NCBI GenBank assembly: GCA_046563655.1
Contig: CM102286.1
Coordinates: 15,438,001-15,502,000 of the forward strand
Direction of reading: 5' to 3'
DNA length: 64,000 nt
From: Yuukianura sp. NJ FZ-2021
Lineage: Eukaryota
Below the pieces are notes generated by a model. The model was not told where the DNA came from and ran no database searches. It saw only the letters and a program-made list of their open reading frames with translations. Positions 25,624 to 61,302 of this stretch are shown here, one piece after another. Position numbers and translations under genes: made by a program. Positions within the stretch are counted from its first letter, which is position 1. Every line of letters begins with the position of its first letter.

Positions 25624-28569
25624 ATGACAGACTCGGAGACTAGACAGAGTAAGAGAAAAAAGAAGGCTGCAGCACTTCTCAGACTCTACACACCCAACGA
25701 GGAACTGGCAGACACCAAAACCGAAACCGTCATCTCTCTCAAATCAAGTCCACGGAGAATTGTCAATGAACCAGACGACACCCGAAGTGTTACGTCACAC
25801 CTTAGTCACATGTCGGCGATGTCAGCCATTAGAAAGAAGCAGCGGGAGCTGGAATTGGCAGCACGGCTCAAGATGATAGAAAAAGATCGGAAGATTGCTC
25901 AGCTGGAAGCGCAACAACAGAAGAAGATTGCAAACGAAGAGAATCATATCATCGAGATGAAGCTTGAGGTGCAGTTAGCGAACCTCGCGGACGAAGAGCA
26001 GGATATTTTAGAAGAGATGGGACTTGTCGAGTGGCATCCACCGGTGGTAAATTGTCCAGACAGTCAGAACAGGGCTACACAGGATTGGGTCAACAAAGTT
26101 CTCTCAGGTCCACTATCCCCCATTCCTTCACCATCATATTATTCACACAATGTATCTCAACCGCCAGTATCAATTCACCAATCAGAAGTTACATCTGAAA
26201 TTAACCAGCCCGGAGAAGCAATGGACTTGGCCTTCAGTAAGTCATTGGAACAAATGAAACCTGTAGTCACTCCTCCACCGGTAGTTACTTCCTCTACTTC
26301 CAAAAAAGGGTTCGCAAGAAAGGCCTACGAGAATGATCTGCCTCACTTGAGTGGTCGACCAGAAGAATGGCGAGTTTTCCATGAAGCCTATACTCAATCT
26401 ACCGAAAAATGTGAATTTTCTGACTATGAAAATCTAAACCGTCTACGCAAATGTCTAAAAGGGGAAGCCCAGAAAGAAGTCGAGTGCCTGCTACATGACC
26501 CCGAGAACGTCTCTCGGATCATGACTATCCTAGAAAGAAGATTCGGGCCCAACAGTCACATCATTAACTATCATCTTTCGAAACTCCAGAACGTTCCACA
26601 GATGAAGGAGAATGATCTAGAATCCGTCAAGAACTTGGAACGGTACGTTTGTCACCTAGTAGAGATACTGAAGGGATTCAATTTAGAAGCCTATATCGAG
26701 GATTCACAACTACTGTGTCACATCGTTGACAAATTACCCCTTTCCTTAAAAGAGAAATGGATGGAAGCCCACGACGAACGCACGTGTTCTCTCATCCTCT
26801 TTGAGGAATGGATTCGAAAGAAGATCGACGTTGAGGAAAGATCCGTGCATCCGGAGATCAAAAAAGAAAAGGGCAAAAATGACAAACACACTAGCAGGTC
26901 AGTACCCGTTAAAGGACACACATCCCAGTCAAACATGCAGACATCTCAGGGAACATATCTGCCGCAACAGCAGCAGTCTACACTGGTCTACAACGGAAGT
27001 GACCTTCCTCAATTCAATGGTTGTCCGGAAGAGTGGTTGACCTTCCATACCGCCTTTACTCAGACATCACAGAAATGCGAGCTTGCAAACTATGACAATC
27101 TTCACCGTCTCCGTCTATGCTTAAAAGGAGAAGCCCACAAGGAAGTAGAGAGTCTGCTACATGACCCAGAAAACGTACCTCGGATCATAGCAATCCTAAA
27201 AAACAGATTCGGGCGCAAGAAGCACATCATAAACTATCATCTGTCCAAACTCCAGAGTTTTCCACAAATGAGAGAGAATGATCCAGCGTCAGTCATGAAC
27301 TTTGGAATGTACGTCCGCAACTTGGTAGAGATTCTGATGGGTTTCAAATCGCAAGTCTACTTGGAGAATCCACTACTGTTGGATAGTCTCATCGCCAAAT
27401 TGCCGGTTTCTATGCAAAAAAAGTGGATGGAAAAACACGACAACAGCACGAGTTCCCTCATCTTATTTGAGGAGTGGATCAGAGAGAAGGTCGATATTTC
27501 TGAGAGACTCCTGCTGCGAAAACTCACGGATAATAAACAAAAGAGGAAAAAACAGAGTAGCAAATCCGTAGTTACTACGCACCAGGGAAGTCCATCGCAG
27601 CCAACTTCAGGCAGTTCTCAAGCTTCATCTAACACTCAGCAGCAGCAGTCTACAACTCAAGCCAGCCGATGTCATCATTGCCAGACAAACGGCCATCGCA
27701 TTCATGGTTGTGAACAGTTCAAACAGGCAACTTTGGAAGTACGCCTCAACACAGTCAAGATCCGGAAGCTTTGCTACGGATGTCTCAACTTTGGTCACGG
27801 AACAAAAGACTGTCGCTCCAAGAAGAAGTGTACAGTCGGCGACTGCAGTTACTTCCACCATCAGCTTTTACATCGGACCACGGCTCCAGCTACTTACCCA
27901 TCTCAACTACACGGTTCCACTCAAGTCACTTACCCAGTTATTCCTGTCATACTCATGGGCCCGAAGGGAAATGTCTCTACCTATGCTCTGCTGAGTTCGG
28001 GATCCGCCTACACCCTACTGGACGAAGTACTAGCAGACCAACTTCAACTCTGTGGAAACAAAGAACCTCTTCGTTTCACCACAATCACTCACCCTCAGGG
28101 CTCAGTAGTCCTTTCACGGTCAGTCTCTCTCAGTATTTTCAACGTTACTAATGGAGACTCATTCAACATCACCAACGTACGTACTTTCCCATCACTTACT
28201 ATTCGTGCTGGCACCGTGACTCGGGCACAGCTAGCAGAGTGGAAACATCTAGACGGATTGCCTCTTCCATTGTACTCAGATGTCCGGCCGAAGATCCTGA
28301 TTGGAATTCCACACCATAAGCTGATTACCCCTACTGAAATTGTGAAAGGTCCCCCAAACGGTCCACTAGCGTTGAAAACGCCGCTCGGATGGATGGTCTG
28401 CGGGAAGATGGCTCTCCCTGCAGGAAGCAAAACAGCCAACCCCACCTACGGAGTCTACACTGTCCTACAATCTCCACCACAGTTAGTACAGCAATACTAC
28501 CACTGCCAAATTTTTATTCTATCGGATTCTAATCTAATTTACTTTAACTGTTTTCCTGTGTGTTTGTAA
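25624..28569 (+). CDS. gag: BEL/Pao-derived Gag (two DUF1759/capsid-like domains, Zn knuckles) + degenerate aspartic protease; no RT/RNase H/integrase; candidate domesticated gene
   Basis: LP(H/Q)(L/F)xGxPEEW...L(R/K)xCLKGEA occurs twice; CHHC...H...C, CYGCLNFGHGTKDC and CTVGDCSYFHHQLLH knuckles; ALLSSGS in place of ALLDSGS; PKILIG and KTPLGW motifs; AATAAA at ~28856. Confidence 0.85.
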   Translation: MTDSETRQSKRKKKAAALLRLYTPNEELADTKTETVISLKSSPRRIVNEPDDTRSVTSHLSHMSAMSAIRKKQRELELAARLKMIEKDRKIAQLEAQQQKKIANEENHIIEMKLEVQLANLADEEQDILEEMGLVEWHPPVVNCPDSQNRATQDWVNKVLSGPLSPIPSPSYYSHNVSQPPVSIHQSEVTSEINQPGEAMDLAFSKSLEQMKPVVTPPPVVTSSTSKKGFARKAYENDLPHLSGRPEEWRVFHEAYTQSTEKCEFSDYENLNRLRKCLKGEAQKEVECLLHDPENVSRIMTILERRFGPNSHIINYHLSKLQNVPQMKENDLESVKNLERYVCHLVEILKGFNLEAYIEDSQLLCHIVDKLPLSLKEKWMEAHDERTCSLILFEEWIRKKIDVEERSVHPEIKKEKGKNDKHTSRSVPVKGHTSQSNMQTSQGTYLPQQQQSTLVYNGSDLPQFNGCPEEWLTFHTAFTQTSQKCELANYDNLHRLRLCLKGEAHKEVESLLHDPENVPRIIAILKNRFGRKKHIINYHLSKLQSFPQMRENDPASVMNFGMYVRNLVEILMGFKSQVYLENPLLLDSLIAKLPVSMQKKWMEKHDNSTSSLILFEEWIREKVDISERLLLRKLTDNKQKRKKQSSKSVVTTHQGSPSQPTSGSSQASSNTQQQQSTTQASRCHHCQTNGHRIHGCEQFKQATLEVRLNTVKIRKLCYGCLNFGHGTKDCRSKKKCTVGDCSYFHHQLLHRTTAPATYPSQLHGSTQVTYPVIPVILMGPKGNVSTYALLSSGSAYTLLDEVLADQLQLCGNKEPLRFTTITHPQGSVVLSRSVSLSIFNVTNGDSFNITNVRTFPSLTIRAGTVTRAQLAEWKHLDGLPLPLYSDVRPKILIGIPHHKLITPTEIVKGPPNGPLALKTPLGWMVCGKMALPAGSKTANPTYGVYTVLQSPPQLVQQYYHCQIFILSDSNLIYFNCFPVCL

Positions 28570-29022: not shown

Positions 29023-32000
29023 TTCCCAATTTGGCTCCAAATTGGAATCCCTAATCCACCTCTAAAATGTACGGAAGCTTAAAAGGGTCAAATCACGTCC
29101 CACTTCCCAGTGCTCGGTACTCGATACCCAGTGCGCGGTTCCCAGTACTCGCTACTCGCTTCCCAGTACTCAGTGCGCGGTTCCCAGTACCCGGTACCCG
29201 CTTCCCAGTACTCAGTGCGCGCTTCCCAGTACTCGGTACCCGCTTCCCAGTACTCAGTGCGCGGTTCCCAGTTGTGCTGCGCGGTTCCCAGTTGTCGCTG
29301 CGCGGTTCCCAGTTGTGCTGCGCGGTTCCCAGTTGTCGCTGCGCGGTTCCCAGTTGTGCTGCTCGGTTCCCAGTACTCGATTCCCACTTCTCAGTTCCCA
29401 GTGCGCGGTTTCCGGGTGGTCCTTTTTCTTCAAAAATCCTTATCTCCTTTTTGTTGCCCTTTGGAGCTCGAGCCTTCCTTTCTATCTGCAAAAATGGCAA
29501 TTATGTAAATGCAGTACCGTGAGGATCCCAGTGTAGAAGACCCATGGCTGTTATTTATTACCAAAATGAGAGTAACTAAAAAATTGCACTAATTTCAAAA
29601 AAATACCGTACTGCATCGAGAACATTGACAATTAAAATAACATGCGGATACTTAGGTTCAAAAACTGAACAAAAAATCAACAATAATTAAAAAAAAATAT
29701 TTGAGTTGACGTTCTTTCTCCTTGCAAGTGAATTTTGAACTATTGAATGATTTGATTATTATACCTATTTTTATCTTTTACACTTACAGTTCTGTTGTGT
29801 TAATAAATATTTTAGCGTTCACTAAAAAATTGAATGATCTAACTATTGATTTTTTTTATTATTGATTTTTTGTTCAGTTTTTTATTTTGTTTCACTCCTT
29901 GAAACATTTTGAAGTAATGAATTTTTTTAAGTATTAAATTTTTATGGAAGTATTGCCATTTTATTTTAATTGTTAATTTGTTTGATGCGTTACGGTATTT
30001 TTCTGAAATTAGTGCAATTTTTTTAATTTTGCTCATTTTGGTAATAAATAACAGCCATACGTCTTCTACACTGGGATCCTCACGGTACTTCATTTACATA
30101 ATCGGCATTTTTGCAGATAGAAAGGAAGGCTCGAGCTCCAAAGGGCAACAAAAAGGAGATAAGGATTTTTGAAGAAAAAGGACCACCCGGAAACCGCGCA
30201 CTGGGAACTGAGAAGTGGGAATCGAGTACTGGGAACCGCGCAGCGACAACTGGGAACCGCGCACCGCGCACTGAGTACTGGGAAGCGGGTACCGAGTACT
30301 GGGAACCGGGAATCGAGTACTGGGAAGCGAGTACCGAGTACTGGGAACCGCGCACCGGGTACTGGGAACCTCGCACCGGGTACCGGGAACCGCGCAGCGG
30401 GTACTGGGAACCGCGCACCGGGTACCGGGAACCGCGCAGCGGGTACTGGGAACCGCGCACCGGGTACTGGGAACCGCGCACCGAGTACTGGGAACCGCGC
30501 AGTTAAACTCCAGTGTATTGCTTATGGAGGAGGTAATCGGGAAGCGAGTTGGCCCTTTTACGCTTCCGTAAAAATGGGATCCCTAATTTAACTCAAACTG
30601 GAAGTCCCACATTGACTCGAAAATGGGATTCCCACATTGACTCCAAAATGGAGTTCCCAAATTGAATCCAAAATGGTAGTCTCAAACTGAACCCAAAATC
30701 GAGTTCCCATATTGACTCCAAAATGGACGTCCAATTAGGACTCCCAAAGGTGTTACTTTCAACTCAAAATAAGACTCCAAAATGGAAGTCAAAATAAGAC
30801 TCCAAAATGGAAGTTAAAATGGGACTCAAAAAAGGGTTACTTTCAACTCAAAATGGAAATCAAAATAAGACTCCAAAATGGAAGTTAAAATGGGATTCCA
30901 AAATGGGAGTCAAAATGAGACTCCAAAATGGAAGTCCAAATGGGACTCCCAAAGCTTTCCAACTCAAAATCGATGTCCAAATGGGACTGCCAAATGGAAT
31001 TGAAAATTGGATTCCCAAAGCCCTTTATTTCAACTCAAAATGGAAGTGGAAATGGGACTCCCAAATGGAACTCCAAAAGCCCTTTTTTCCCTCTCAAAAT
31101 TTATTTTTTTAACATGGTGAGAGTCATCATTAAGTATTATCATTTTTTCTAGATTTTGTATTATAAACGCCATTGCCAGGAGTTTGAGAGCATCATAGAA
31201 GGTTAAGGTGTCTGCATACTGTTAAAAAGTTTATGCGACTCCGAAATGGAATTCCCAAATTAACTCCCAAATGGCATGCGAAATGGGATTCCCACATCCC
31301 TTCAACTCAAAATGGAAGTCGAAATGGGACTCCCAAAGCCCTTCATCTCAACTCAAAATGGAAGTCTAAATGGGACTTCAAAATGGAAGTCAAAATAAGA
31401 CTCCAAAATGGAAGTTAAAATGTGACACCAAAAAGGGTTACTTTCAACTCAAAATGGAAGTCAAAATTGGACTCCCAAAGGGAACCCCAAATGAAATCCG
31501 AATTTGGACTCCCAAAGAGAGTCCCAAATGCTATCCAAAATTCGATTCCCAAAAAGAACCCCAAAGTGATTCCCAAATTGGAGTTCCAAATTCAACCCCA
31601 AATACAGTTTCAAATCGGACTCCCAAAGAGAGTCCAAAATGAAATCCAAAATTGGACTCCCAAAAGGAACCCCAAAATGAAATCCCAAATTGGAGTCCCA
31701 AAGAGAGTCCAAAATGAAATCCAAAATTGTAGCCCTAAAGGGAACACCAAAGTGAATCCCAAATTGGAGTCTCAAAGAAAGTCCGTCCCAAATGCTATCC
31801 GAAATTGGACTCCCAAACAGAGTCCCAAATGCTATCCCAAATTGGAGTCCTAAAGAGAGTCCAAAATGAAATCCAAAATTGGAGTCCCAAATTCAACCCC
31901 AAATGGAGTTCGAAATCGGACTCCCAAAGAGAGTCCCAAATGCTATCCAAAATTGGAGTCCTAAAGAGAGTCCAAAATGAAATCCAAAATTGGACTCCCA

Positions 32001-33135
32001 AAAAGAACCCCAAAATGAAATCCCAAATTGGAGTTCCAAATTCAACCCCAAATGGAGTTCGAAATCGGACTCCCAAAGAGAGTCCCAAATGCTATCCGAA
32101 ATTGGAGTCCTAAAGAGAGTCCAAAATGAAATCCAAAATTGGAGTCCCAAATTCAACCCCAAATGGAGTTCGAAATCGGACTCCCAAAGAGAGTCCCAAA
32201 TGCTATCCGAAATTGGAGTCCTAAAGAGAGTCCAAAATGAAATCCAAAATTAGACTCCCAAAGAAAACCCCAAAGTGAATCCCAAATTGGAGTCCCAAAT
32301 GCTATCCGAAATTGGAGTCCTAAAGAGAGTCCAAAATGAAATCCAAAATTGGACTCCCAAAGGGAACCCCAAAGTGAATCCCAAATTGGAGTCCCAAAGG
32401 GAGTCCAAAATGAAATCCAAAATTGGAGTCCTAAAGGGAACCATAAAGTGAATCCCAAATTGGACTCCTAAAGAGTGCCCAAAATAAATGGAATCCGAAA
32501 TTGGATTCCCAAAGAAACCCCTAAACATAATCCAAAATTGTGTCCGAAATTGAAACCCCAAAAGGAATCCGTAATTGGAGTCCCAACGTGAACCCCAAAT
32601 AAAACCCCCAAATTGACTGCAATGGAATTCGAAATGGGGTTCGAAAATGATAGTCCCAACTCGAACCCAAAATGGAATCCCCCAATTCAACTCCAAAATG
32701 GAACTCCCAATTCGCCTCCAAAATTGAATCCCTAATTTAAATCCAAAATTGAATCCCTAATTTAACTCCCAAATGGAAGTCGAAATGGGACTCCAAAAGT
32801 AATGTAAAAAGTAAAAACCTAACCTAATACAATCCCAAATTGGATTCCCAAAGAGAATTCTAAATGGAATTCGAAATTGGATTCCCAAAAAAAAACCCTA
32901 CATGGAAGCCAAAATTGTGTCCAAATTGAAAACCCCAAAACAAATTCTAAATTGCAGTCCCAATGGGAATCCGAAATAAAACCCCCAAATTGACTCCAAA
33001 ATGGAAGTCCCTATTCAACTCCAAAATGGAATCCCTAATTCGACTCAAAAATGGAGGTTGAAATGGGGCTCCAAAATGCAATTCCCAACTTGACTCCACA
33101 ATGGAATCCCTAATTTAACTCCAAAATGGAATCAT
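29023..33135. repeat. Degenerate satellite built on ~10-11-bp CCAAAATGGA/GACTCCCAAA units, with ~110-150-bp higher-order repeats (31790-32400); interrupted by the foldback element and by ~31110-31230
   Basis: Block 31861-31971 recurs near-identically at 32121-32231. Confidence 0.9.
29070..30570. mobile_element. Foldback-type non-autonomous element with ~600-bp internally repetitive inverted arms
   Basis: Termini TACGGAAGC(T/G)TAAAAGGG(T/C)CAA are inverted; arms contain 18-21-bp TTCCCAGTAC.. minisatellite units and a near-identical ~270-bp unique inverted block; AAAATG duplicated on both flanks. Confidence 0.8.
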
Positions 33136-35716: not shown

Positions 35717-36086
35717 ATTCCTCATCCTTATAAGCTTACGCTTATTTCACTGATTTTTGTAAATTATTCGGAAATTGGTTATTGTTAAGGCTATGTCGTA
35801 AACTAACTGTATTTGATTATTTAGATTAACTTAACCTTCCCTAACAGTAAGTCGTACACTTAGTTTTTCTACTTAACTAATTCAGTTTAGTGAGTATTCG
35901 ACGTTTACAATTACAGTTTGCCGCATCAGTTCCAAATTAATAAGAAAGTTGAATACCAATTTCTTCTATAAACATCGTTATACTTCCCTTTTACTTTTTT
36001 CTTTCGCATTCATCTTTTATTATGTATTTCAAACCATTACTCGTTGGAAGTCTAATTCATAATTCGGTAGGGAGATTGGGTTTTTT

Positions 36087-36657
36087 GGAATGTTGCCAAT
36101 ATTTCATTCCACAGACACTAGTGTATCATGAAAAAGTATTGCCATATCGGGCTATTCAACTTTGAAGCTTAGTTGAGAAAATTGCCTACGAGGGATTTTT
36201 GAAATGTTGCCACTATTTTATTCCTAGTACACTAGTGTATCATGGAAAAGTATTGGCATATCGGGCTGTTCGACTTTGAAGCTTAGTTGAGAAAATTGCC
36301 TACGAGGGATTTTTGAAATGTTGCCACTATTTTATTCCTAGTACACTAGTGTATCATGGAAAAGTATTGCCATATCGGGCTGTTCGACTTTGAAGCTTAG
36401 TTGAGAAAATTGCCTACGAGGGATTTTCCAAATATTGTCACTATATTGTTCCACATACACTAGTGTATCAAGGAAAAGTATTGCCATTTCGGGCTATTCA
36501 ACTTTGAAGCTTAGTTGAGAAAATTGCCTACGAGGGATTTTTGAAATGTTGCCACTATTTTATTCCTAGTACACTAGTGTATCATGGAAAAGTATTGCCA
36601 TTTCGGGCTGTTCAACTTTGAAGCTTAGTTGAGAAAATTGCCTACGAGGGATTTTTG
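36087..36657. repeat. 114-bp tandem repeat, ~5 copies
   Basis: CACTAGTGTATC recurs at 36116, 36230, 36344, 36458, 36572. Confidence 0.95.
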
Positions 36658-37056
36658 ATACAAACATTTTGAGGACCTAAGAAGCAGCATTGCAAAAGTG
36701 ATCGGCCATTCTCACGTTGTTAATAGCGAGGTTGTAGCGAAGTTTCCACTTTACTTTCCGCTTTTGATTTTGAGAAGGGAAACTAAAAGTGAAACTTCAG
36801 TTGTATGGAGTTTAGAAGTTTCACTTTCCGTTTTGCCAAATTAAAGAATTCCGGTTGAAGTAAGGTTTACCATTGTAGCCGCACGGTATAACCGCCAGCG
36901 GCCATCTTGGGTGGCTACACAGTGATTGGCTACGCTTGTGCCGCACAAGTTGTGCGGCAACATTTGTCGCCAGTGACAACACTGTTTTTAGAATAAGGTC
37001 ACTAGATGCAATCTAAATCCAAACAATCTACCCTGATCAAAAACGTAACCAAACAT

Positions 37057-39321: not shown

Positions 39322-39708
39322 GTTATCCCTTACTTTAGAGGTCAATAATAAAATTATCTCTGTACGGAAACGATTGGCGTTTTATGAGAAAAATCAGTGT
39401 TAACTTTAGCGTACAAGTTTGAAAAATTATTTCCATTAACTTGAACTGGTTATCTTGCGTAAATCCTATGAACAAATTTTAAGTAATGGATCTTTTTTGA
39501 ATCAACAGAGTTGGTAGTTCATGAAGAAATTCAGTTTCAATTTTAGCCTTCAACTTTGAAAAAAAAATTTTTCTTCACCTTTGACTGGTTTTCCTATGTA
39601 AACGCTACGAAGAATTTTTGAATAAATTACCTTTTTGTAATCTACAGAGTTGTGTGAGGACTGGGGGAGGGATAAAGAGGGAAACAAAGGACAAGCCAGA
39701 AAAAATAA

Positions 39709-39784
39709 GGAACCGAGTGGGACTCGAACCCACAACCTTCTCCAATCCGGGGAGATTGCTCTAAGCCATTGAGCTATCAGGTCC
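39709..39784 (-). ncRNA. tRNA-like Pol III unit inside the 3' LTR (probably not a functional tRNA)
   Basis: A-box TAGCTCAATGG, D-stem GCTC/GAGC, stem TCTCC/GGAGA, B-box GGTTCGAGTCC, followed by TTATTTTTT; non-canonical anticodon loop and acceptor-stem mismatch. Confidence 0.8.
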
Positions 39785-40011
39785 CAATCTGGCTTGTCAG
39801 GGAAGGGAACTGGTGTATGTGATGGGAGTGAGACACGAGCCACTTCGTACACTCTCCATCTGGCGATTGGCAGTGGGGACTTGCTGACCAATCGCCACAC
39901 CACCCCGCCCCCGAAGTCCTCCGACGGCTCGGAATAACCGTCTTTCGGCACCATATGTGAGGACTGGGGGAGGGATAAAGAGGGAAACAAAGGACAAGCC
40001 AGAAAAAATAA

Positions 40012-40087
40012 GGAACCGAGTGGGACTCGAACCCACAACCTTCTCCAATCCGGGGAGATTGCTCTAAGCCATTGAGCTATCAGGTCC
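40012..40087 (-). ncRNA. tRNA-like Pol III unit inside the 5' LTR
   Basis: Same sequence as 39709-39784. Confidence 0.8.
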
Positions 40088-41366
40088 CAATCTGGCTTGT
40101 CAGGGAAGGGAACTGGTGTATGTGATGGGAGTGAGACACGAGCCACTTCGTACACTCTCCATCTGGCGATTGGCAGTGGGGACTTGCTGACCAATCGCCA
40201 CAGTTGGTGGTTTATGAAAAAATTCAGTTTCAATTTTAGCCTTCAACTTTGAAAAATAATTTTTTTTTCATTTTTAACTAGTTTTCCTGCCTAAACGCTA
40301 CGAAGAATTTTTGAATAATGGACCTTTTTTGAATCTAAAGAGTTGGTGGTTTAGGAAAAAATTCAGTTTCAATTTTAGCCTTTAACTTTGAAAAATTTTA
40401 ATTTTCAACTTTAACTAGTTTTCCTCTCTAGACGCTACAAAGAATTTTTGAACCATCTTAACCATTTACATTAACATTTACTGGTTCACATATAATTTAT
40501 GAACTTCGTTTGAACGAAATGTAACGGACTCAGACTGTTCAAATCCTGCGTTTTCCTACCCCTTAACTTTTCTGTTGGAAACAAAAAATTAATTAGCAAT
40601 ATCTTGGAAAAGACTTGGAAAACACGGTTTCAATTTTGAATGACAGGGAAGTTGAGAAGAATTTTTTTCCATTCGTCGACGTATGAATTTCTTACTCATT
40701 CCTCATTCGTTTGTTGGTACATAGGTCAACACATAATTTGTACAGTTTTAGTATAAATACTGTGCAACTTCCATTTACTAGATTAGCACCTATCATCAAA
40801 GTCGTTGTGTTGAACGGACGTGTCCAAATTTAAATCTTAAAACTCGGTCACCTCTATTTTTCTTTGATTATTTGCTGCCAACTTCCTACAGTGAGCGGAC
40901 GCCTATCTTAAACTTAACAAAATTTACCGTTAACGCAAAGGTAGGTCATTTTTTATAGATATCAACATTACGCTAACTGTGCTGTTTCCTACTGGCTAAC
41001 CCTCTTACTATTTCTCTAGCTGATACGCGATTGGACTCGGTTTGGAAGCAATTTGGGATACCTTGAAATCATTCTCACGGAATAATATTGCAGACTTCAG
41101 AAAAGTGAGACAACATACGCGGGAATTCTGCTTAAAACCCCTACCTTGAGTCACAACTTTATCAGTCTTTGGCTAGACGCGACCGGAGAAGGTTCATCCT
41201 CGCGTGTGCTATTCTTCTAAATTTAGATTTTCTTCCATTGACTTCCAACACATTCATCTCAAAACACAACAGCAACACAATCATTATACAACCGGTAAGT
41301 TGCACCTCATTTACAACTTGTGCACATGTCCCAGACTTGTTGATTTAACTTGACATTGTTCAGGAA

Positions 41367-49842: not shown

Positions 49843-51927
49843 TCATAGTCGTCTGATGTTACGAACTTCAGCTTCGTGGACTTCATCCATGCTTCCATTT
49901 CCCATATTAAAAGTCCTCAATTGAGCCATCTTCGGGACATGAAATTTGACTTGGTTGTCGGGCATGTCCACTCCTTGCCAGTTTCCAGCAATCGTGAAGT
50001 GTCGGAGAGTTAAGGCGAATTTTGACAACTGCGATGTCAGATCCATGGCCTTCACATCCTCCCATATTCCGCAGTTTAATTCTAAACTTGCTTATGCTGA
50101 AAGCTTCACATTGGCAATCGCTAGAATTTGTTTGCGATTGCCAATGTGAATCTCTCAGCAAGAAGTAGTGGTCGAGAGAATTTGTTTGCGATGCAGAGCA
50201 AGTTCTTCCTTGTGTTCATCATCTAGACCTGCTAAAAATATTTACTATCAGCACCCAAAATATTTATTTAAAAATTTACTAAAAACGGCTAAATATTTAC
50301 AAAAATATTTACTAAAACCGTTAATATTTATGAATTTCGCACTAAAATCAGACCGATTTAGTTATAAAAACACTTTACGTAAGTAGAAAAAGACTGGGCA
50401 ACAACCCCAATCACAAGATTCAGCACGCCACTGCACTGTCTTGTCGCTTAATATAACCGTGTGAGAACAATGCTGCTGTAACGGTATTGTGCTCATGATT
50501 CCATTAGTATGGTTTAAAATTTTTGTAAAAATGTACATATACATACGAAAGTATATACGTATTCGTACGTATCTAAAGTACCGAAGCACTTTCATATAGG
50601 TGCCAATCTGATTTTTCGCGTACTTGTACTCAAAGTTTTGTTGTTTCCAATGTTGCATGGGACAAATTTTTAGTTAACTACTGAATTGATGCTACTGAAA
50701 ACGCCGTAGACGTTCTTTTCACGATGTTGTTGTCGAAAAATCAGACAAACACATTGGTTTGTTCACCGAGAGTAGACAAAAAAGTCGAATTTTCGGCAAA
50801 ATAATTATGAAAAGCCAAAATATTTAAAAAATAGTTGCATTTTGTCAAAAAAGCGCCGAAAATTAAAAAAAAATATTTACATTTTTTTAAATCCCGAAAT
50901 ATTTTTTTTAAATATAAAAATATTTAGTATTTAAAAAAACATTTTTAGCAGGTCTAATCATCATCATTATCGTTTATCGTTCGACTCTTTTTTTCTCAAT
51001 AGTTAAGAGTTTCAGACTTTTCAAATTCTGGAGAAGAATTGATTCCATTAAGGAGCTGCTCGACTTCTTGGAGGCTTGAATACGTGTAGGCAAAATGGTC
51101 TACTGTTTTCGGGAGGTTGACCAGTAAGCCGCCACCAAGGTTTGTTGTGTTCTTTAGAAAATGCTTGTTTCCGGTAAACACCACTTTCACAAGCTTTATA
51201 CGTGCAGAGAAAGTGAATTTTGAGCTAGAGTTATCCTCCGCTTCATCGTTTTGGTCACGTGACTCTGGAATCACCAACACTTCCAATTCCTTCAGCCGGG
51301 TGGCTATCTCCTTCAAGATTTCGAAGTTGATTGCTTCTACGTTGATTGTTTTGATTCTTTTTTTCGATTAGTATCGCAGAAGCGAATAAATCTGGGCTGG
51401 TTAATTGGTCTCGATCCAGCAAAATGAACTGTAGTAACCTTGGAGCCAAGCTTTCGGTTAGGATTTTCGTCGACAAACAAAGTACGGCCGTAAATGACTT
51501 TGATTGAGCCCTTCTGTTCCGCTTTCGCTTTTTCTTTGTTTGCTCCGTCTTCGTCATCAATATCCTGTAAACAAATAAAACATTTAATTTTCCACAATCA
51601 ACTTGTTTACATACAAGCGTTGTATTGCATTAGTTTTTCCTACTACCTTGTGCATTATATTGCACACATTGATATTACGTCAGGCGTAATTTTTTTTGGT
51701 ATATAGCTTTGGGTCAAATGTCGCGGTCCAATTTGTACCGAGGTTGGCGAATCCTGCTGCGATGGACCCTGGTGACGGTCGGGTTCATCGTCTGACAAGT
51801 CTACAGCTTCCACAACAGTTTATGGTTCTCGTTCCTGCCTCAGTATTATAACGTCGTCGTCATGGTTGGTATCTCCTTGACGAACGAGGTCAGAATCCTA
51901 AGACGTTCCTGCTGCCGGTCGTGGCAT
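49843..51927 (-). pseudogene. Poly-SIM/LRR-like gene copy A (3'-truncated, frameshifted, MITE-disrupted)
   Basis: Homologous to copies B-D; interrupted at 50224-50956. Confidence 0.75.
50224..50956. mobile_element. MITE (hAT-like TAG termini) inserted in copy A
   Basis: TIR TAGACCTGCTAAAAAT; inserted in an (ATC)n tract, so TSD length is ambiguous; absent from the paralogs. Confidence 0.8.
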
Positions 51928-54900
51928 TGTGCCGATGGAAGGTCTAGCAAGTCGGTTGCTCAGACAAAACAAACTGAGGAGGTTTGTGAGTCGGTGTCCA
52001 ATTGTCATTTCATGCTTCGTTTTGTCAGTTTATTGCCATTGTACCTGTTCAATTTTGGCGTTTCTAGACTCAATTTTCTATCTTTGTACAAGCCGTAAGT
52101 TTGCACGGTCGGCAACATGATTGTGACTGACGTTTCAAGTTTATGACTTGCGTTTTATCAACGCTTTTTATGAGTCATGAAATATGAGCCGACCCCTTGT
52201 CACAATGCGGCATTCTCTTGGAATGCAAAAATTTTCACTGTTCTTACCATTTCAAATGCAACTCTCCAAATTTTTTCCCAAGAGCTTCTGCCGCCACTGA
52301 CATGCATCAAAATGTTGCCATGAATGGTGAGATCATGTTTAGGTATATCCCATTGGGGCGTTCACGGCAAATGTAAAATCCGAAGCAGTTGAAGTTGAAA
52401 TGCAAGCATTTCTTGAATTTGAAATTATGTAATGCACAAACAGCTCCCGACGCTTAAGCCGACCAGGAACGTGCTGAATGCAACAGCAGTCGAAGTTCCG
52501 CCAACACATAACGATGCTGCCCCAGTAGCCAAGGAAGTTGTCACTACAAATGTAAAAAGTATAAGTTAACATGAAACAAATTTACCCGAAGTCGCAACGA
52601 CATTTTTGTGCTTACGGTGAAAACTAATTGATTTAAAACACTAAACACGCCAAGGTCAACACTGCCGACTTCATATTCACAACTGCACATTATATTGATC
52701 AATTCAACCTTTTTGTGAAAACTATACTGGAAATGGAAAAACTATCTTCAAATTCCAACAAATTTAATGTCTATACGTTACTTTGCCATACCCTAATACA
52801 TGCTTCTTTTATGTCATCACGATAGGTTTGACCAAGGCTCCGGGTTGACTCTGAGGGCTCTTGTTTGACCTCATATCAAATTTCGTCCTCGCTTCTTCGC
52901 CCTCGCTTCTTCGCCGTCAGTGGGCTTCTCCTTCTTCAATTTCTTGATTTGTCTGTCCCTGGCAAATTCACGTTTCGCGTTACGCTTCTTTTTCTTAGTC
53001 CTGGATCCAACATCTTGAATTTTGTCACCCCGATTCTTCAAGAAATTGTGGTCAAATGGGTACTGCCGGAATCCGATTCCGCAATGTGGATGAAATGTTT
53101 GCTGTGGATGTTTATGTGAAATTTTGTTATTCAACGGAATTTTGACCGGTTTCTTGCCGAACCATTCCAGGGTCATATTCTTGAGCCCTGTCAAATGCTC
53201 AATGCCATACTCCCGTCTGCGCAGAATGTCATCATCGATGGTCGGCTCTGCCCAAATGGGAAGTTCAATTAATTTGTCACGAATGAATTCCTCAAAAACG
53301 TCTTGGTTTTGAGCGTTTTTTAATTCCAGGAGTTTAGTGAGACTGTAGTCGTCTTCGATTAGTGGAAGGTATCGTTGAGAAAACAACATCTACCAGCATC
53401 CCTTTGAAGTCAAATGCTGTTTTCAATTGTAGTGCTTCCAGGGGAGAATTGGCCATGCCATCAAAAAAATATCGGAGACATTTCGCAGTTGGGTACTTCA
53501 TGGTGATTCGTTTCAAGGCGGGAAACATTTTACGAATGTTAAGCATAAAGAATTGGTCTTGAATGAAATCAGGAACCCGGAGGTCACGAACAAACTTGAA
53601 TTCGTGAAATTCCGAGTTAAAGGCTTCTGGAGACGTTGGGATTTGCATTGTCACTGTCCAGTTGCTGCGAATATGAAGTCGTTAACTTCGGGAACATGGA
53701 TGGCTGCATACTCTCGATGTGAATTGAATTTCCGAGAAACAAAGTTTTCAGAGTTTTGATTGGCGAAAATGAAATTTCCATTTCAGTCGTTCCTATTTTG
53801 TCCAAGGAGATGACCTGGTCATCTTGTACATTCTGTGCGCCATGTCCCCCGGCTGAGTCGTCGTCGCTGTAACTACCGCAGCCTTCATAGTCTGCTGATT
53901 CGACGATTCCTTCAGTTTCTTTGACTTCATACACGCTTCCAATTCCCATGTGAAGAGTCCTCAGTTGAGCCATCTTCGGGACATGATGTTTGAGTTGATT
54001 GTCGGCGGCCATGTCCACTCCTTGCGAGTTGCCGGCAATCGTGAAGTGTCGGAGAGTTGGGGCGAATTTTGGCAAGAGAGTAGTCAGATCCATAGCCTTC
54101 ACGTCGTCCCATATCCCGCAGTTCAATTTTAAACTTGCTAATGCTGCAAGATTCAAATTGGCAATCGACAGACTTTGTTTGCGATGCAGTGCAAGTTCTT
54201 CCTCAGCATCATCCTCGTTCGACTCGATTTTCTGAATACTCAAGAGTTTCAGATTTTTCAAATTCGAAGAAGAATTGATTCCATTGAGGAGCTGATCAAG
54301 TTCTTGAAGACTTGAGTAAGTGTAGAGCAAATAGCTGAGCGTTTTCGGCAGGCTGGCCAGCAAGCCACTGAGGTTTGTGGTGTTCCTCAGAAAATTATTG
54401 TTTCCATTAAGCACAACTTTCACAAGCTTGGTACGTGCAGGGAAAGTGAATTTTGAGCTAGACTTCTCCGCTTCAACGTTTTTGTCACGTGACTCTGGAA
54501 TCACCAATACTTCCAATTCCTTCAGCCGGTTCGCAATCTCCTTCGAGATTTGGCAGTTGATTGCTTCTACGTTGATTGTTTTGATTCTTTTTTTCGATTA
54601 GTATCGCAGAAGCGAATAAATCTGGGCTGGTTAATTGGTCTCGATCCAGCAAAATGAACTGTAGTAACCTTGGAGCCAAGCTTTCGGTTAGGATTTTCGT
54701 CGACAAACAAAGTACGGCCGTAAATGACTTTGATTGAGCCCTTCTGTTCCGCTTTCGCTTTTTCTTTGTTTGCTCCGTCTTCGTCATCAATATCCTGTAA
54801 ACAAATAAAACATTTAATTTTCCACAATCAACTTGTTTACATACAAGCGTTGTATTGCATTAGTTTTTCCTACTACCTTGTGCATTATATTGCACACATT

Positions 54901-56640
54901 GATATTACGTCAGGCGTAATTTTTTTTGGTATATAGCTTTGGGTCAAATGTCGCGGTCCAATTTGTACCGAGGTTGGCGAATCCTGCTGCGATGGACCCT
55001 GGTGACGGTCGGGTTCATCGTCTGACAAGTCTACAGCTTCCACAACAGTTTATGGTTCTCGTTCCTGCCTCAGTATTATAACGTCGTCGTCATGGTTGGT
55101 ATCTCCTTGACGAACGAGGTCAGAATCCTAAGACGTTCCTGCTGCCGGTCGTGGCATTGTGCCGATGGAAGGTCTAGCAAGTCGGTTGCTCAGACAAAAC
55201 AAACTGAGGAGGTTTGTGAGTCGGTGTCCAATTGTCATTTCATGCTTCGTTTTGTCAGTTTATTGCCATTGTACCTGTTCAATTTTGGCGTTTCTAGACT
55301 CAATTTTCTATCTTTGTACAAGCCGTAAGTTTGCACGGTCGGCAACATGATTGTGACTGACGTTTCAAGTTTATGACTTGCGTTTTATCAACGCTTTTTA
55401 TGAGTCATGAAATATGAGCCGACCCCTTGTCACAATGCGGCATTCTCTTGGAATGCAAAAATTTTCACTGTTCTTACCATTTCAAATGCAACTCTCCAAA
55501 TTTTTTTCCCAAGAGCTTCTGCCGCCACTGACATGCATCAAAATGTTGCCATGAATGGTGAGATCATGTTTAGGTATATCCCATTGGGGCGTTCACGGCA
55601 AATGTAAACTCCGAAGCAGTTGAAGTTGAAATGCAAGCATTTCTTGAATTTGAAATTATGTAATGCACAAACAGCTCCCGACGCTTAAGCCGACCAGGAA
55701 CGTGCTGAATGCAACAGCAGTCGAAGTTCCGCCAACACATAACGATGCTGCCCCAGTAGCCAAGGAAGTTGTCACTACAAATGTAAAAAGTATAAGTTAA
55801 CATGAAACAAATTTACCCGAAGTCGCAACGACATTTTTGTGCTTACGGTGAAAACTAATTGATTTAGAACACTAAACACGCCAAGGTAAGCACTGCCACC
55901 TTCATATTCAAAACTGCACATTCTATTGATTAATTCAACCTTTTTCTGAAAACTCTACTGGAAATGGGAAAACTATCTTCAAATTCCAACAAATTTAATG
56001 TCTATACGTTACTTTGCCATACCCTAATACATGCTTCTTTTATGTCATCACGATAGGTTTGACCAAGGCTCCGGGTTGAATCTGAGGGCTCTTGTTTGAC
56101 CTCATATCAAATTTCGTCCTCGCTTCTTCGCCCTCGCTTCTTCGCCGTCAGTGGGCTTCTCCGTCTTCACTTTCTTGATTTGTCTGTCCCTGGCAAATTC
56201 ACGTTTCGCGTTACGCTTCTTTTTCTTAGTCCTGGATCCAACATCTTGAATTTTGTCACCCCGATTCTTCAAGAAATTGTCGTCAAATGGGTACTGCCGG
56301 AATCCGATTCCGCAATGTGGATGAAATGTTTGCTGTGGATGTTTATGTGAAATTTTGGTATTCAACGGAATTTTGACCTGTTTCTTGCCGAACCATTCCA
56401 GGGTCATATTCTTGAGCCCTGTCAAATGCTCAATGCCATATTCCCGTCTCTGCAGAATGTCATGATCGATGGTCAACTCTGCCCAATTGGGAAGTTCAAT
56501 TAATTTGTCACGAATGAATTCCTCAAAAACGTCTTGGTTTTGAGCGTTTTTGAGTTACAGCAGTTTAGTGATACTGTAGTCATCTCCGATTAGTGGATGA
56601 CATCGTTGAGAAAACAGCATCTTCCAACATCCCTTCGAAG
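51251..56640. repeat. Recent tandem segmental duplication, period ~3230 bp
   Basis: ~51330-52620 is near-identical to ~54560-55850 (identical ORF translations offset by 3230). Confidence 0.92.
52871..55157 (-). pseudogene. Poly-SIM/LRR-like gene copy B (several frameshifts)
   Basis: Fragments 52871-53389, 53334-53654, 53617-54516, 54567-54827; LRR-like motifs LKNLKLLSI, LASLKLNC, FPALKRITM. Confidence 0.75.
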
Positions 56641-58210: not shown

Positions 58211-59095
58211 ATTTCATGTAATGCTTTAGCTTTTAAAAGTGACATTAAGCTTGTGACTTGAGAAATTAAAACATTTTCCACTTTTCCACACTAATTGAGA
58301 ACGTTATCCCCTTGAGAAGTCCTGTGTTTAGGTTCATCTCTTGTTTTCATCTTCACAAACAGGAAAAAATAACATCGATTTACCTATTTTTTTTATATGA
58401 ATAACGTGCCTACCATTTTTTAATTAATTCAAATTTACAAAACTAGTCTAAATGTAAACAAAAAAGTGTGAAACTGTAAAAGGAAATGTGGATTTTAGTG
58501 AAGCAATACCGACAGTGATGCAATAAGCGTGTGAATTTGTAGACGTGGCTTGTGGTTTTACAAGTAGCACTGACAAAATATAAAGTTTAGTAATAAGATA
58601 CTATGTATAACTTTTCTGAACATCCAAAATATCAAAACTCTAAAATGCGTTTTAAACTTTCTTATAAGCTATTGTTAAAATCCTTTAAAAATAGTAAAAT
58701 TACAATAAGTCTTATATTTGAATTGTACTAAAAATAGTACCTACTTTTTAATTGATTTGTGAGTGTAAGTTGCTAAATATTGGCGGAGTTAAAAGTGTCT
58801 TATGTGCGTTCTTGCAATTAGTTTAGGTTAGGTGTTGCACAAAACCTTTGCGGTTTTAAAAGCACACGAAACCGACTTCCTTAAGATTTGACTTTATATC
58901 ATTGGCTTACCGCAGTTTAATTAAGGTTTACGATTGGCCTAATTTGTAAATTGAGGTATAATGATGATTAATGCAAAAGTTAAAAGTTGAGTTAGTATTG
59001 AATTCAGTTCTCCACAAAAAGCTTTTACTTTAACATATTTTACTGACCTAGAATTTAACTTAACACATTGAAGGTGCGAATTAGTTCATCTAAAG

Positions 59096-60958: not shown

Positions 60959-61302
60959 CAAAGAAAAAAGCATCCTAGTTGAAGCGACAAAGGGTAAGAA
61001 ACACTGTTAATGAAAACTTTCTCTTCCCCCCTCTCCCTCCCCGCGATTTGGAGGAATGGAATTTGAGTTCTTGGGTGGTCGCTGGTATAGCTTAGGCGTA
61101 ATGTGGAGTGATTTTGCTTCCCGCCGTCACCTGATATATGGTGATATACGGAGGCCGATTCTGACGCTTCGATTGGCTGTTGAGGCCGATTCTGACAGCC
61201 TGATTGGTTCTATATCTAAACCTACTTATAAAAACTCTATTACGCGGGAGTACATTACCTTGTCCCTTCAACCTGCGTAGCAGGCCGATGCTTTCTTCTT
61301 TG
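60959..61302. mobile_element. Non-autonomous TIR element with 9-bp TSD (MULE-like)
   Basis: TSD GATTAGTGG (60950-58, 61303-11); imperfect TIR CAAAGAA(A/G)AAAGCATC. Confidence 0.8.

What the first reader, a model, noticed from the sequence alone, without database searches (positions are those of the whole stretch)
39649..40206. Very recent miniature LTR retrotransposon whose LTRs each contain a tRNA-like Pol III gene
Seen: LTR(247)-PBS(Phe)-PPT-LTR(247), only 550 bp in total, with LTRs identical by eye and a 4-bp TSD GTTG. The uninterrupted target (GAGTTGGTGGTTT) is preserved in the neighbouring tandem-repeat copy at ~40340. Each LTR has A/B boxes, a cloverleaf-like fold, a T6 run just downstream, and a terminal hairpin TGGCGATTGG..CCAATCGCCA. 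Established: Cassandra TRIMs carry 5S RNA and Helenus TRIMs carry tRNA-like LTRs, with 4-bp TSDs reported in animals. Inference: an active SINE/LTR hybrid mobilised in trans, likely by a Gypsy-type element. How full-length RNA bypasses the T6 terminator is an open question.
Basis: partly seen in the sequence, partly recalled or inferred. Interest (0 to 1): 0.75.

Follow-up and report, generated by a model that had tools for sequence, protein, structure and literature searches.

The report
Miniature retrotransposon with tRNA-like LTRs
This is a 550-base, gene-less jumping element whose two identical end-repeats each carry a decayed tRNA gene; it is a fresh copy of a kind first described in 2024 (Helenus), so it is a neat example and not a new kind of element.

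Summary
Two 247-bp repeats (39653-39899, 39956-40202) are 100% identical and end in TG..CA. They enclose 56 bp and are flanked by a 4-bp duplication, GTTG, inside a ~138-bp host satellite. The element reads on the minus strand: 5' LTR, TA, an 11-nt site complementary to the 3' end of tRNA-Phe, a polypurine tract, 3' LTR. Each LTR holds a tRNA-like sequence (Rfam tRNA, 43.7 bits) with intact A and B boxes, but it breaks tRNA rules (C33, U37, Ser anticodon without a long arm). A T6 run follows it.

Public reads add three things. An uninterrupted version of the site (554 bp skipped) exists in another DNA data set. A diverged solo LTR is flanked by AGAC on both sides. Many related contigs are present.

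It fits Helenus/TRIMp3 (Kojima 2024) by structure. It matches none of the published consensus sequences at its termini or primer site, and tRNA-Phe is a primer type not reported for Helenus. The T-run behind the tRNA-like part is the rule in invertebrate Helenus (22 of 24 consensus LTRs read), which fits Pol III termination defining the RNA 3' end. Transcription, the polymerase and the autonomous partner remain untested.

Verdict: new member of a known kind.

The parts
39649..39652 (.). Target-site duplication GTTG, left copy
   Evidence: The same 4 nt recur at 40203-40206. Uninterrupted satellite units carry a single GTTG (39510-39513 region and 40342-40345).
39653..39899 (-). 3' LTR in element sense, 247 bp, TGTG...CACA termini
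   Evidence: 100% identical to 39956-40202.
39700..39705 (-). T6 run (Pol III terminator-like), 3 nt after the tRNA-like part of the 3' LTR; proposed 3' end of the genomic RNA
   Evidence: the only run of T>=4 on the sense strand of the LTR, at LTR positions 195-200.
39709..39783 (-). tRNA-like sequence in the 3' LTR (box A TAGCTCAATGG, box B GGTTCGAGTCC)
39861..39897 (-). Terminal hairpin at the U3 start of the 3' LTR (TGGCGATTGG..CCAATCGCCA)
   Evidence: z = -4.25, 0 of 200 shuffles.
39900..39912 (-). Polypurine tract GGGGGCGGGGTGG, abutting the 3' LTR
   Evidence: read directly from the internal region sequence.
39900..39955 (-). Internal region, 56 bp, non-coding
39943..39953 (-). Primer-binding site TGGTGCCGAAA, 2 nt (TA) after the 5' LTR; complementary to the 3' end of tRNA-Phe(GAA)
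   Evidence: the only exact match in the window; the published Drosophila tRNA-Phe capture oligo begins TGGTGCCGAAACCCGG, so 11 contiguous and 14 of 16 positions match.
39956..40202 (-). 5' LTR in element sense, 247 bp
40003..40008 (-). T6 run in the 5' LTR, which any full-length Pol III transcript must read through
40012..40086 (-). tRNA-like sequence in the 5' LTR; proposed Pol III promoter and R region
39992..40101 (-). 11-bp inverted repeat GACAAGCCAGA / TCTGGCTTGTC enclosing the tRNA-like part and the T6 run. The same pair in the 3' LTR lies at 39689-39798.
   Evidence: 112-nt fold -44.5 kcal/mol, z = -3.23, 1 of 200 shuffles; self-matches of the arms.
40203..40206 (.). Target-site duplication GTTG, right copy
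   Evidence: In one search the skip of 554 has 5 letters that fit either side.
39371..40460 (.). Host satellite of ~138-bp units, into which the element inserted
   Evidence: families D2-D6, spacing 137 / 693 / 139.

Best explanation
[quoted passage not shown] Its LTRs contain a tRNA-derived sequence, which makes it a Helenus-type 'TRIMp3' element. This copy inserted very recently into a host satellite.

Shown: LTR(247)-TA-PBS-PPT-LTR(247); TG..CA ends; a 4-bp target duplication; identical LTRs; a tRNA-like part with intact A and B boxes but a non-functional anticodon loop; a T6 run directly behind it; an uninterrupted form of the site in another data set; and relatives elsewhere in the genome, including a solo LTR with its own 4-bp duplication.

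Inferred: the element encodes nothing. It is copied by the reverse transcriptase and integrase of an autonomous LTR element that primes with tRNA-Phe and makes 4-bp duplications. Going by Kojima's pattern for animals, that partner is a Gypsy-type element; BEL/Pao is not excluded.

The most likely RNA route is also inferred. Pol III starts at the tRNA-like sequence of the 5' LTR (LTR position ~117). A minority of transcripts read through the first T6, cross U5, PBS, PPT and U3, and stop at the T6 of the 3' LTR. The LTR would then be U3 (1-116) | R (tRNA-like part to the T-run, ~117-198) | U5 (~199-247), and the genomic RNA would be about 387 nt.

The confidence given (0.85) is for the identity of the element; I give the Pol III read-through route only about 0.3-0.4.
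For: Anatomy.

tRNA-like part. Box A lies at LTR position 124 and box B at 170. T6 is the only T>=4 run on the sense strand. Neither LTR strand has AATAAA, ATTAAA or a TATA box.

Primer-binding site: for the Drosophila tRNA-Phe oligo.

Insertion into the satellite: (693 = 139 + 554).

Public reads:
- X4, record 12, joins 39647 to 40202 (skips 554), with 3 other letters in 111.
- X1, record 2, spans the filled left junction with 0 differences.
- 95 records were laid in X1 and 74 in X4, of which 23 and 18 are >=99% alike.
- X4, record 13, is an ~88% LTR flanked by AGAC on both sides and not followed by the internal region.
- Between that relative and this copy, no listed difference falls in box B, the T-run (one A longer) or either inverted-repeat arm, and box A reads unchanged as far as a loose end shows it. 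The D-loop and anticodon arm differ at many places.

Class definition and the animal 4-bp duplication: Kojima 2024, PMC10886601 (outline, Results and Discussion read).

T-run as a class feature: 22 of 24 named complete LTR consensus sequences in part 7 of Data S1 have T>=4 shortly after the B box (counted by eye).
Against: No RNA end, polymerase or partner element was observed.

T6 is a strong Pol III stop, so a full-length Pol III RNA needs read-through that nobody has measured.

The RNA-library contigs that hold the element (X5: 211 nt at 100%; X6: 78 nt at 100%, plus one ~91% internal-LTR-internal contig) cannot show transcription, strand or read-through. DNA carry-over of a multi-copy repeat, or assembly across the shared R region, would give the same picture.

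The absence of other T4 runs along U5 + internal + U3 is not significant: 2642 of 5000 shuffles also lack one.

The isolated tRNA-like sequence does not prefer the cloverleaf (z = 0.04; cloverleaf -20.0 against MFE -21.2 kcal/mol).

The fish Helenus consensus LTRs seen have no T-run.

The empty-site contig could come from a near-identical paralogous satellite unit and not from the allelic site. Units within the window are only 73-86% alike, against 97% for that contig.

The host's own tRNA-Phe was not seen.
Confidence: 0.85

Rival explanations
1. Same element, different RNA route. The TRIM is transcribed by Pol II from U3, like ordinary TRIMs. The tRNA-like part is a passenger, such as a tRNA-derived SINE or tRNA pseudogene once captured in an LTR. 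It yields at most a short dead-end Pol III RNA that stops at T6, or acts as a processing or structure signal.
For: T6 directly behind the tRNA-like part should stop most Pol III transcripts. Kojima proposes that Helenus arose by SINE2 insertion into a TRIM LTR. The X5 contig covers 81 nt upstream of the tRNA-like start and runs past T6. The 11-bp inverted repeat needs the arm upstream of the tRNA-like start to be in the RNA.
Against: The LTR has no TATA box, TCAGTY-type initiator or poly(A) signal on either strand. No listed difference falls in box B, and box A reads unchanged as far as shown, in a relative whose D-loop and anticodon arm have diverged. The tRNA-like part followed by a T-run in the 3' half of the LTR is kept in 22 of 24 invertebrate Helenus consensus LTRs, which is hard to explain for a passenger. 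The X5 contig can be an assembly join across R.
Confidence: 0.3
2. Not a mobile element. A 303-bp segment holding a tRNA pseudogene was duplicated in tandem (1.8 copies) by replication slippage or unequal exchange.
For: TRF describes the region as period 303, 1.8 copies, 100% matches. It lies in a tandem-repeat-rich stretch.
Against: A duplication does not explain these features occurring together: TG..CA ends; the 4-bp flanking duplication of a satellite site that is intact in neighbouring units; a tRNA-Phe-complementary 11-mer 2 nt after one repeat and a polypurine run abutting the other; a contig skipping the whole 554 bp; and a diverged single LTR with its own 4-bp flank repeat elsewhere.
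Confidence: 0.02
3. The LTRs carry working tRNA genes, so the element spreads functional tRNA-Ser(GGA) copies.
For: ARAGORN calls tRNA-Ser(GGA). Rfam tRNA scores 43.7 bits, above the gathering score. The T-loop, D-loop GG and both promoter boxes are intact, and a terminator is present.
Against: The anticodon loop reads CCGGAUU: C where U33 is expected and U where a purine at 37 is expected. A Ser anticodon sits on a short variable region (5 nt), whereas tRNA-Ser has a long arm (textbook tRNA rules, recalled). The acceptor stem has a C-U mismatch, marked in the alignment. Kojima finds that most Helenus tRNA-like parts are non-functional.
Confidence: 0.03
4. The autonomous partner is a BEL/Pao element and not a Gypsy element.
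For: A BEL/Pao gag-protease reading frame lies in the same window (25621-28569; DUF1759 twice, E = 7.6e-31). BEL/Pao elements also use tRNA 3'-end primers and make short duplications (recalled).
Against: That fragment has no tRNA-Phe primer site nearby: one search found no exact match elsewhere in the window. It also shares no sequence with the element. For animal Helenus, Kojima found primer-site similarity only to Gypsy elements.
Confidence: 0.25

Closest known systems
Helenus (TRIMp3), Kojima 2024, Biology 13:119 (PMC10886601)
   Same: It is a TRIM with a sense-oriented tRNA-derived sequence in the 3' half of each LTR and conserved A and B boxes. PBS and PPT abut the LTRs, the ends are TG..CA, and the duplication is 4 bp as in animal Helenus. 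The size (550 bp) lies inside the published 311-1263 bp range. A T-run follows the tRNA-like part, as in 22 of 24 consensus LTRs read.
   Different: It shares no sequence with the published consensus set beyond the generic T-arm. The element's LTR start, its LTR end, a D-arm 13-mer and the PBS 11-mer each occur 0 times in the supplement (matches split across line breaks could be missed). tRNA-Phe as primer is not among the reported types (Lys, Leu, Trp, Arg, His, Ile, Pro, Glu, Ser; fungal Tyr, Ile, Asp, iMet, Asn). The host is probably an arthropod outside the listed species: the only arthropod order listed in Table S1 is Hymenoptera. An 11-bp inverted repeat encloses the tRNA-like part and the T6 run.
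Cassandra (plant TRIM with 5S rRNA-derived LTRs)
   Same: It is a non-autonomous TRIM whose LTRs carry a Pol III gene-derived promoter and terminator. According to Kojima's introduction, its transcription starts in the 5' LTR small-RNA part and ends in that of the 3' LTR. Tandem LTR-internal-LTR arrays are known.
   Different: Cassandra's LTR insert is 5S-derived with A/C boxes, not tRNA-derived. It is found in plants and its PBS is TGGTATCAGAGC. Rfam finds no 5S match here.
Ajax (nemertean TRIM with a 5S promoter fragment)
   Same: It belongs to the same TRIMp3 concept.
   Different: Ajax has a 5S promoter, 5-bp duplications and a tRNA-Leu primer.
tRNA-derived SINEs (SINE2)
   Same: They have an internal A/B-box Pol III promoter derived from a tRNA, are short, are mobilised in trans, and are flagged as tRNA genes by tRNA finders.
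   Different: SINEs have no LTRs, PBS or PPT. They end in a LINE-like tail or A-rich tract and are copied by LINE enzymes with variable duplications (recalled). Here the tRNA-like part is embedded inside an LTR.
Retrozymes (TRIM-like elements with hammerhead ribozymes in the LTRs)
   Same: They are small, non-coding LTR elements whose LTRs carry a structured small-RNA motif.
   Different: No hammerhead or other ribozyme family matched, even at E <= 1.

Membership tests
Helenus / TRIMp3 | TRIM architecture: two short LTRs and a short non-coding internal part | tested here: met
   247 + 56 + 247 bp. The single stop-free frame across the element has no protein-family basis and follows from the 303-nt (101-codon) periodicity.
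Helenus / TRIMp3 | tRNA-derived sequence inside each LTR, with box A (TRGCY..YGG) and box B (GGTTC) kept | tested here: met
   RF00005, 43.7 bits; TAGCTCAATGG, GGTTCGAGTCC.
Helenus / TRIMp3 | PBS just after the 5' LTR and PPT just before the 3' LTR | tested here: met
   TA + TGGTGCCGAAA; GGGGGCGGGGTGG abuts the LTR.
Helenus / TRIMp3 | 4-bp target-site duplication (animal Helenus) | tested here: met
   GTTG on both sides; empty-site contig skipping 554; relative flanked by AGAC on both sides.
Helenus / TRIMp3 | Dispersed multi-copy family with solo LTRs | tested here: inconclusive
   95 related contigs laid in X1 and 74 in X4, and one solo-LTR-like relative. No genome is held, so copies could not be counted or their flanks read. 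There is no second copy in the window.
Helenus / TRIMp3 | Sequence kinship with a published Helenus family | tested here: not met
   of 8 element-specific words (11-13 nt), 0 occur in Data S1; only generic T-arm words hit. Helenus is defined by structure and is thought to have several origins, so this does not bar membership.
Helenus / TRIMp3 | Transcription by RNA polymerase III from the LTR | not testable with these tools
   By the paper's own words this is not validated for any Helenus. The RNA-library contigs cannot show it.
Functional tRNA gene | Canonical anticodon loop (U33, purine 37) and an isotype-consistent body | tested here: not met
   alignment: the loop reads CCGGAUU, a Ser anticodon sits on a short variable region, and the acceptor stem has a mismatch.
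Cassandra / Ajax | 5S rRNA-derived sequence in the LTR | tested here: not met
   no 5S rRNA match.
Retrozyme | Hammerhead ribozyme in the LTRs | tested here: not met
   no ribozyme family at E <= 1.

The most novel reading that the evidence does not exclude
The T-run placed directly behind the tRNA-like sequence is not an accident of this copy. It is the working R/U5 boundary of invertebrate Helenus elements. The tRNA-like part would be promoter and R region at once. The genomic RNA would be a Pol III transcript that must leak through the terminator of the 5' LTR and stop at the same terminator in the 3' LTR. That would be a Pol III counterpart of the retroviral problem of ignoring the 5' poly(A) signal. 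The 11-bp inverted repeat around the tRNA-like part and the T6 run is complete only in the 3' LTR of such an RNA, because its upstream arm lies in U3. It could therefore make the two identical terminators behave differently, or tie the two RNA ends together for strand transfer.
Probability: 0.3. Interest if true: 0.6.

Novelty: new member of a known kind. Interest (0 to 1): 0.4.

Why it matters
This is a clean, zero-divergence and probably still polymorphic copy of a TRIMp3 element, in a host lineage and with a primer tRNA (Phe) not in the published catalogue. Copies like this make tRNA finders report false tRNA genes: two were called here. Because the copy is young, every functional part is unmutated, which makes it a good template for the untested question of the class. 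Is the genomic RNA made by Pol III, and how does it pass a strong T6 stop in the 5' LTR yet end at the same signal in the 3' LTR? The count of 22 of 24 published invertebrate consensus LTRs with a T-run in the same place shows that this question applies to the whole group and not only to this copy.

Tried and rejected
1. Whole-genome copy search: no genome is held for this window.

2. Pattern scans of public collections:
- LTR-end 22-mer in metagenome contigs: 0 hits.
- Internal-region 22-mer in metagenome contigs: 0 hits.
- Internal-region 22-mer in viral contigs: 0 hits.
- Internal-region 22-mer in prokaryote genomes: 1 hit, in an Agromyces genome. It shares nothing beyond the 22-mer and is a chance match.

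3. Earlier findings of this scan: nothing for this sequence, this genome or these words.

4. Second copy or partner in the window: none. A word-size-7 blastn gave only 11-16-nt chance hits. Near-matches to the primer site at 11166 and 34431 each carry 1 mismatch and sit beside no LTR.

5. 'No other T4 run on the way' as support for Pol III: not significant (2642 of 5000 shuffles also lack one).

6. RNA-library contigs (X5: 2 records laid; X6: 3 records laid) as proof of transcription or read-through: rejected. Contigs show no ends or strand, DNA carry-over of a repeat is possible, and U3-R-U5 can be an assembly join. The zero cover of the flanks in those runs is only what a repeat would give.

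7. The X4 joint 40204 -> 39652 (LTR end to LTR start) read as a 2-LTR circle: the ~3 letters between do not fit the expected TA next to U5, and the tool marks 'between: not known'. Left unexplained.

8. Depth as copy number: the tool states that summed contig depth is no copy number, so only contig counts are given.

9. Host taxon. Pfam found nothing in 32 further reading frames. The F-box/LRR-like frame has one relative, at 36% identity. Its Atlas neighbours are fungal clusters with low shared-feature counts. The BEL/Pao frame's neighbours are arthropod (mosquito, beetle and springtail, at 29-30% identity). 'Probably an arthropod' therefore stays weak.

10. MFE folding of the tRNA-like part alone: no preference for the cloverleaf.

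11. One paper search failed on a too-short term and was re-sent.
Full report
**What is there**

Two direct repeats of 247 nt, at 39653-39899 and 39956-40202, are 100% identical and lie 303 nt apart (TRF gives period 303, 1.8 copies, 100% matches). They begin TGTG and end CACA. Between them lie 56 nt (39900-39955). GTTG flanks the whole on both sides, at 39649-39652 and 40203-40206.

The surroundings are a satellite of ~138-bp units. Three repeat families (D2, D3, D6) have successive spacings of 137, 693 and 139. Since 693 - 139 = 554 = 550 + 4, exactly one element plus one 4-bp duplication was added to one unit. The neighbouring units carry the uninterrupted target (...AGAGTTGGTGGTTT..., for example at 40340-40352).

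**Orientation and retroelement signals**

The element makes sense only when read on the minus strand. The order is:
- 5' LTR (40202 down to 39956)
- TA
- TGGTGCCGAAA
- 30 nt
- GGGGGCGGGGTGG
- 3' LTR

The 11-mer is the only exact match in the 64-kb window. A published capture oligonucleotide complementary to Drosophila tRNA-Phe(GAA) begins TGGTGCCGAAACCCGG (bioRxiv 10.1101/699934, passage seen). The site therefore pairs with the last 11 nt of mature tRNA-Phe, and 14 of the first 16 positions match. The host's own tRNA-Phe was not available. The purine run abuts the 3' LTR, as a polypurine tract should.

**The LTR**

Its parts, in sense-strand LTR positions, are:

| LTR positions | Feature |
|---|---|
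| 3-39 | Terminal hairpin, -20.2 kcal/mol, z = -4.25, 0 of 200 shuffles |
| 117-191 | tRNA-like sequence |
| 124 | Box A, TAGCTCAATGG |
| 170 | Box B, GGTTCGAGTCC |
| 195-200 | T6, the only T>=4 run on the sense strand |
| 102-112 and 201-211 | Perfect 11-bp inverted repeat GACAAGCCAGA / TCTGGCTTGTC |

ARAGORN calls the tRNA-like part tRNA-Ser(GGA). Rfam's tRNA model scores it 43.7 bits against a gathering score of 29.

The inverted repeat encloses the tRNA-like part together with the T-run. The 112-nt fold is -44.5 kcal/mol, z = -3.23, with 1 of 200 shuffles folding as well.

The tRNA-like part is not a working tRNA:
- The anticodon loop reads CCGGAUU, so it has C at position 33 and U at position 37.
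- A Ser anticodon sits on a body without the long variable arm.
- The acceptor stem has a C-U mismatch (alignment).
- The rules for positions 33 and 37 and for the long arm are textbook knowledge that I recalled.

The cloverleaf (-20.0 kcal/mol) lies close to the MFE (-21.2) but is not preferred. Neither LTR strand has AATAAA, ATTAAA, a TATA box or a TCAGTY-type initiator.

**Evidence from public reads (all four runs are contigs)**

*X1* is a DNA run and possibly the source sample.
- A 148-nt contig spans the filled left junction with 0 differences.
- 95 records lie on the stretch. By likeness (>=99 / 95-99 / 90-95 / <90%) they split 23/24/33/15, and 53 lie only partly on it.

*X4* is a DNA run from another study, with another organism label.
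- 74 records were laid (18/22/21/13 by the same bands).
- Record 12 (158 nt) runs from 39537 to 39647 with 3 other letters and then continues at 40202. It skips 554 nt, and 5 letters fit either side. This is the uninterrupted site.
- Units of the satellite inside the window are only 73-86% alike. A 97% match therefore suggests the same locus, but a near-identical paralogous array elsewhere cannot be excluded.
- Record 13 (1699 nt, summed depth 295) carries an LTR about 88% alike (19 other letters, 9 gaps over 221 nt).
- The loose end before it reads AGAC followed by TGTGAGGACT... The loose end behind position 39899 begins AGAC and does not continue into the internal region.
- I read record 13 as a solo LTR with its own 4-bp duplication. 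That both loose ends belong to record 13 is my inference from their lengths.

Comparison of that relative with this copy:
- No listed difference falls in box B or in either inverted-repeat arm, and box A reads unchanged as far as a loose end shows it.
- The T-run is one letter longer.
- The D-loop and anticodon arm differ at many places.
- A loose end shows a relative whose acceptor 5' strand pairs perfectly with the unchanged 3' strand.

Nine contigs of X1 and six of X4 share only the T-arm region and then diverge into other tRNA-like sequence. The genome therefore holds further tRNA-derived repeats.

*X5 and X6* are environmental RNA libraries that hold pieces of the element.
- X5: 2 records laid, among them one 211-nt contig at 100%.
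- X6: 3 records laid, among them a 78-nt contig at 100% across the LTR/internal junction and a 332-nt internal-LTR-internal contig at about 91%.
- Neither run covers the flanks.
- Contigs show no ends or strand, and a repeat would be the first thing seen from DNA carry-over. I therefore do not count this as evidence of transcription.

Only 22 pieces and 15 loose ends were printed; 156 and 56 more were not shown.

**What it is**

The anatomy is that of a terminal-repeat retrotransposon in miniature with a tRNA-derived sequence in its LTRs. Kojima (2024, PMC10886601; outline, Results and Discussion read) named this group Helenus and placed it with Cassandra and Ajax under 'TRIMp3'.

The paper reports 4-bp duplications for animal Helenus and 5-bp for fungal and plant ones. 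It reports primer-site similarity of animal families only to Gypsy elements. Among arthropods it lists only wasps of the order Hymenoptera (also Table S1).

The reported primers are:
- Lys, Leu, Trp and Arg in wasps
- His, Leu and Lys in vertebrates
- Lys, His, Ile, Pro, Glu and Ser in bivalves
- several anticodon-loop primers in fungi

Phe is not among them.

In the supplement's consensus file, these words of this element each occur 0 times: the LTR start, the LTR end, two tRNA-body words, a D-arm 13-mer and the PBS 11-mer. Only generic T-arm words hit (words split across line ends could be missed). I conclude that this is a new family of a known, structurally defined kind.

Literature searches found no other description of such elements:
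- 'Helenus' with 'LTR retrotransposon' and 'tRNA': 4 papers
- 'TRIMp3': 6 papers, of which only Kojima's is relevant
- 'retrotransposons in miniature' with 'tRNA-like': 4 papers

**Host**

- The window has 39% G+C and holds a BEL/Pao gag-protease frame (25621-28569; DUF1759, E = 7.6e-31).
- The nearest named relatives of that frame are insects and a springtail, at 29-30% identity.
- A family of F-box/LRR-like frames has one relative, at 36% identity. By feature search its weak neighbours are fungal.
- BEL/Pao elements are, from what I recall, confined to animals.
- 'Probably an arthropod' is the best I can say.

**How it most likely works**

*Shown:* the structure, the duplication, the identity of the LTRs, and the existence of an uninterrupted site and of relatives.

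*Inferred from the established LTR-retrotransposon cycle:* tRNA-Phe primes minus-strand synthesis at the PBS, and the PPT primes the plus strand. An integrase that makes 4-bp staggered cuts inserted the copy. All proteins come from an autonomous element that I did not find. None is in the window.

To see whether the T-run is peculiar to this copy, I read part 7 of Kojima's Data S1. Of the 24 named complete LTR consensus sequences there (bivalves, a brachiopod, nemerteans and wasps), 22 have a run of four to six T shortly after the B box, counted by eye. The exceptions are Helenus-1_PeMa and Helenus-5_PeMa. Three rust-fungus LTR consensus sequences printed also have such a run. The fish sequences printed do not. 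The paper mentions terminators only for Cassandra.

A tRNA-like part followed at once by a Pol III stop, and then 15-50 nt to the LTR end, is therefore the normal build. The simplest reading is U3 | R (tRNA-like part up to the T-run) | U5. Pol III would start at the tRNA-like part of the 5' LTR, and a minority of transcripts would leak through the first T-run. They would end at the T-run of the 3' LTR, giving about 387 nt here. This mirrors what Kojima's introduction states for Cassandra.

In the MFE fold of that RNA, the downstream inverted-repeat arm of the 5' copy pairs with the upstream arm of the 3' copy. That could hold the ends together, but it is speculation.

The rival is ordinary Pol II transcription with the tRNA-like part as a passenger. 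I give the Pol III read-through route about 0.3-0.4, the Pol II route about 0.3, and the rest to mixtures or routes I have not considered.

**Rejected readings**

- A plain tandem duplication does not explain the TG..CA ends, the flank duplication, the PBS and PPT, the 554-nt skip or the solo relative.
- A functional tRNA gene is ruled out by the loop and arm defects.
- Cassandra/Ajax and retrozymes fail their defining features: there is no 5S match and no ribozyme match.

**Verdict**

This is a new family of the known Helenus/TRIMp3 kind. It is a very young insertion that is probably still polymorphic. Its points of modest novelty are a tRNA-Phe primer site, a host outside the published list, and an inverted repeat around the tRNA-like part and its terminator.

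Interest is moderate (0.4). The most useful outcome is that the terminator question can now be stated for the whole group, and this intact copy would be a good substrate for testing it.

Noticed in passing
window 25621-28569 (+): A 982-codon stop-free frame of a BEL/Pao-type retroelement. It carries two DUF1759 gag-like domains (internal duplication, 26327-26626 against 26993-27292, 74% identity), a zinc knuckle and the start of an aspartic protease. It then breaks off, with no reverse transcriptase behind it. Nearest relatives are at most 35% identical.
   Followed up: partly
window 29132-29379 and 30223-30501: Two arrays of the same 21-nt unit in opposite orientation (TGCGCGGTTCCCAGTACTCGC and its reverse complement), about 850 bp apart. 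About 3 kb of 25/37-nt satellites follows (30571-33133). They look like the inverted ends of a larger repeat-built structure.
   Followed up: no
window 36078-36658: A 114-bp satellite, 5.1 copies, 92% matches.
   Followed up: no
window ~49960-63260 (-): Four tandem copies of a 3.2-4.4-kb unit, each with an F-box/LRR-like reading frame (for example 53620-54597 and 57223-58290). Only one distant relative exists in the protein collection (36% identity, LRR_4).
   Followed up: partly
window 3-1022 and 16203-17042 (+): Reading frames with long runs of 7-residue coiled-coil repeats (EENKKLF.. and HEDLKIE..), encoded by 21-nt tandem repeats.
   Followed up: no
window 39550-40242 (-): A 230-codon stop-free frame runs through the whole element on its sense strand. 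The 303-nt period is 101 codons, so only ~100 distinct codons need be stop-free. I take it as chance.
   Followed up: partly
window 40204 -> 39652 (run X4): One contig joins the end of an LTR to the start of an LTR with about 3 letters between. It could be adjacent or nested copies, or a circle junction. It does not fit the expected 2-LTR-circle letters and remains unexplained.
   Followed up: partly
window 39700-39734 (runs X1 and X4): Nine contigs (X1) and six contigs (X4) match only the T-arm and acceptor 3' part and then run into different tRNA-like sequence with A-rich tracts beside it. The genome seems to hold other tRNA-derived repeat families, either SINEs or further Helenus families.
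   Followed up: no
Kojima 2024 Data S1, part 7: 22 of 24 invertebrate Helenus LTR consensus sequences carry a T4-T6 run directly after the tRNA-like part. The paper's text does not discuss this feature.
   Followed up: partly
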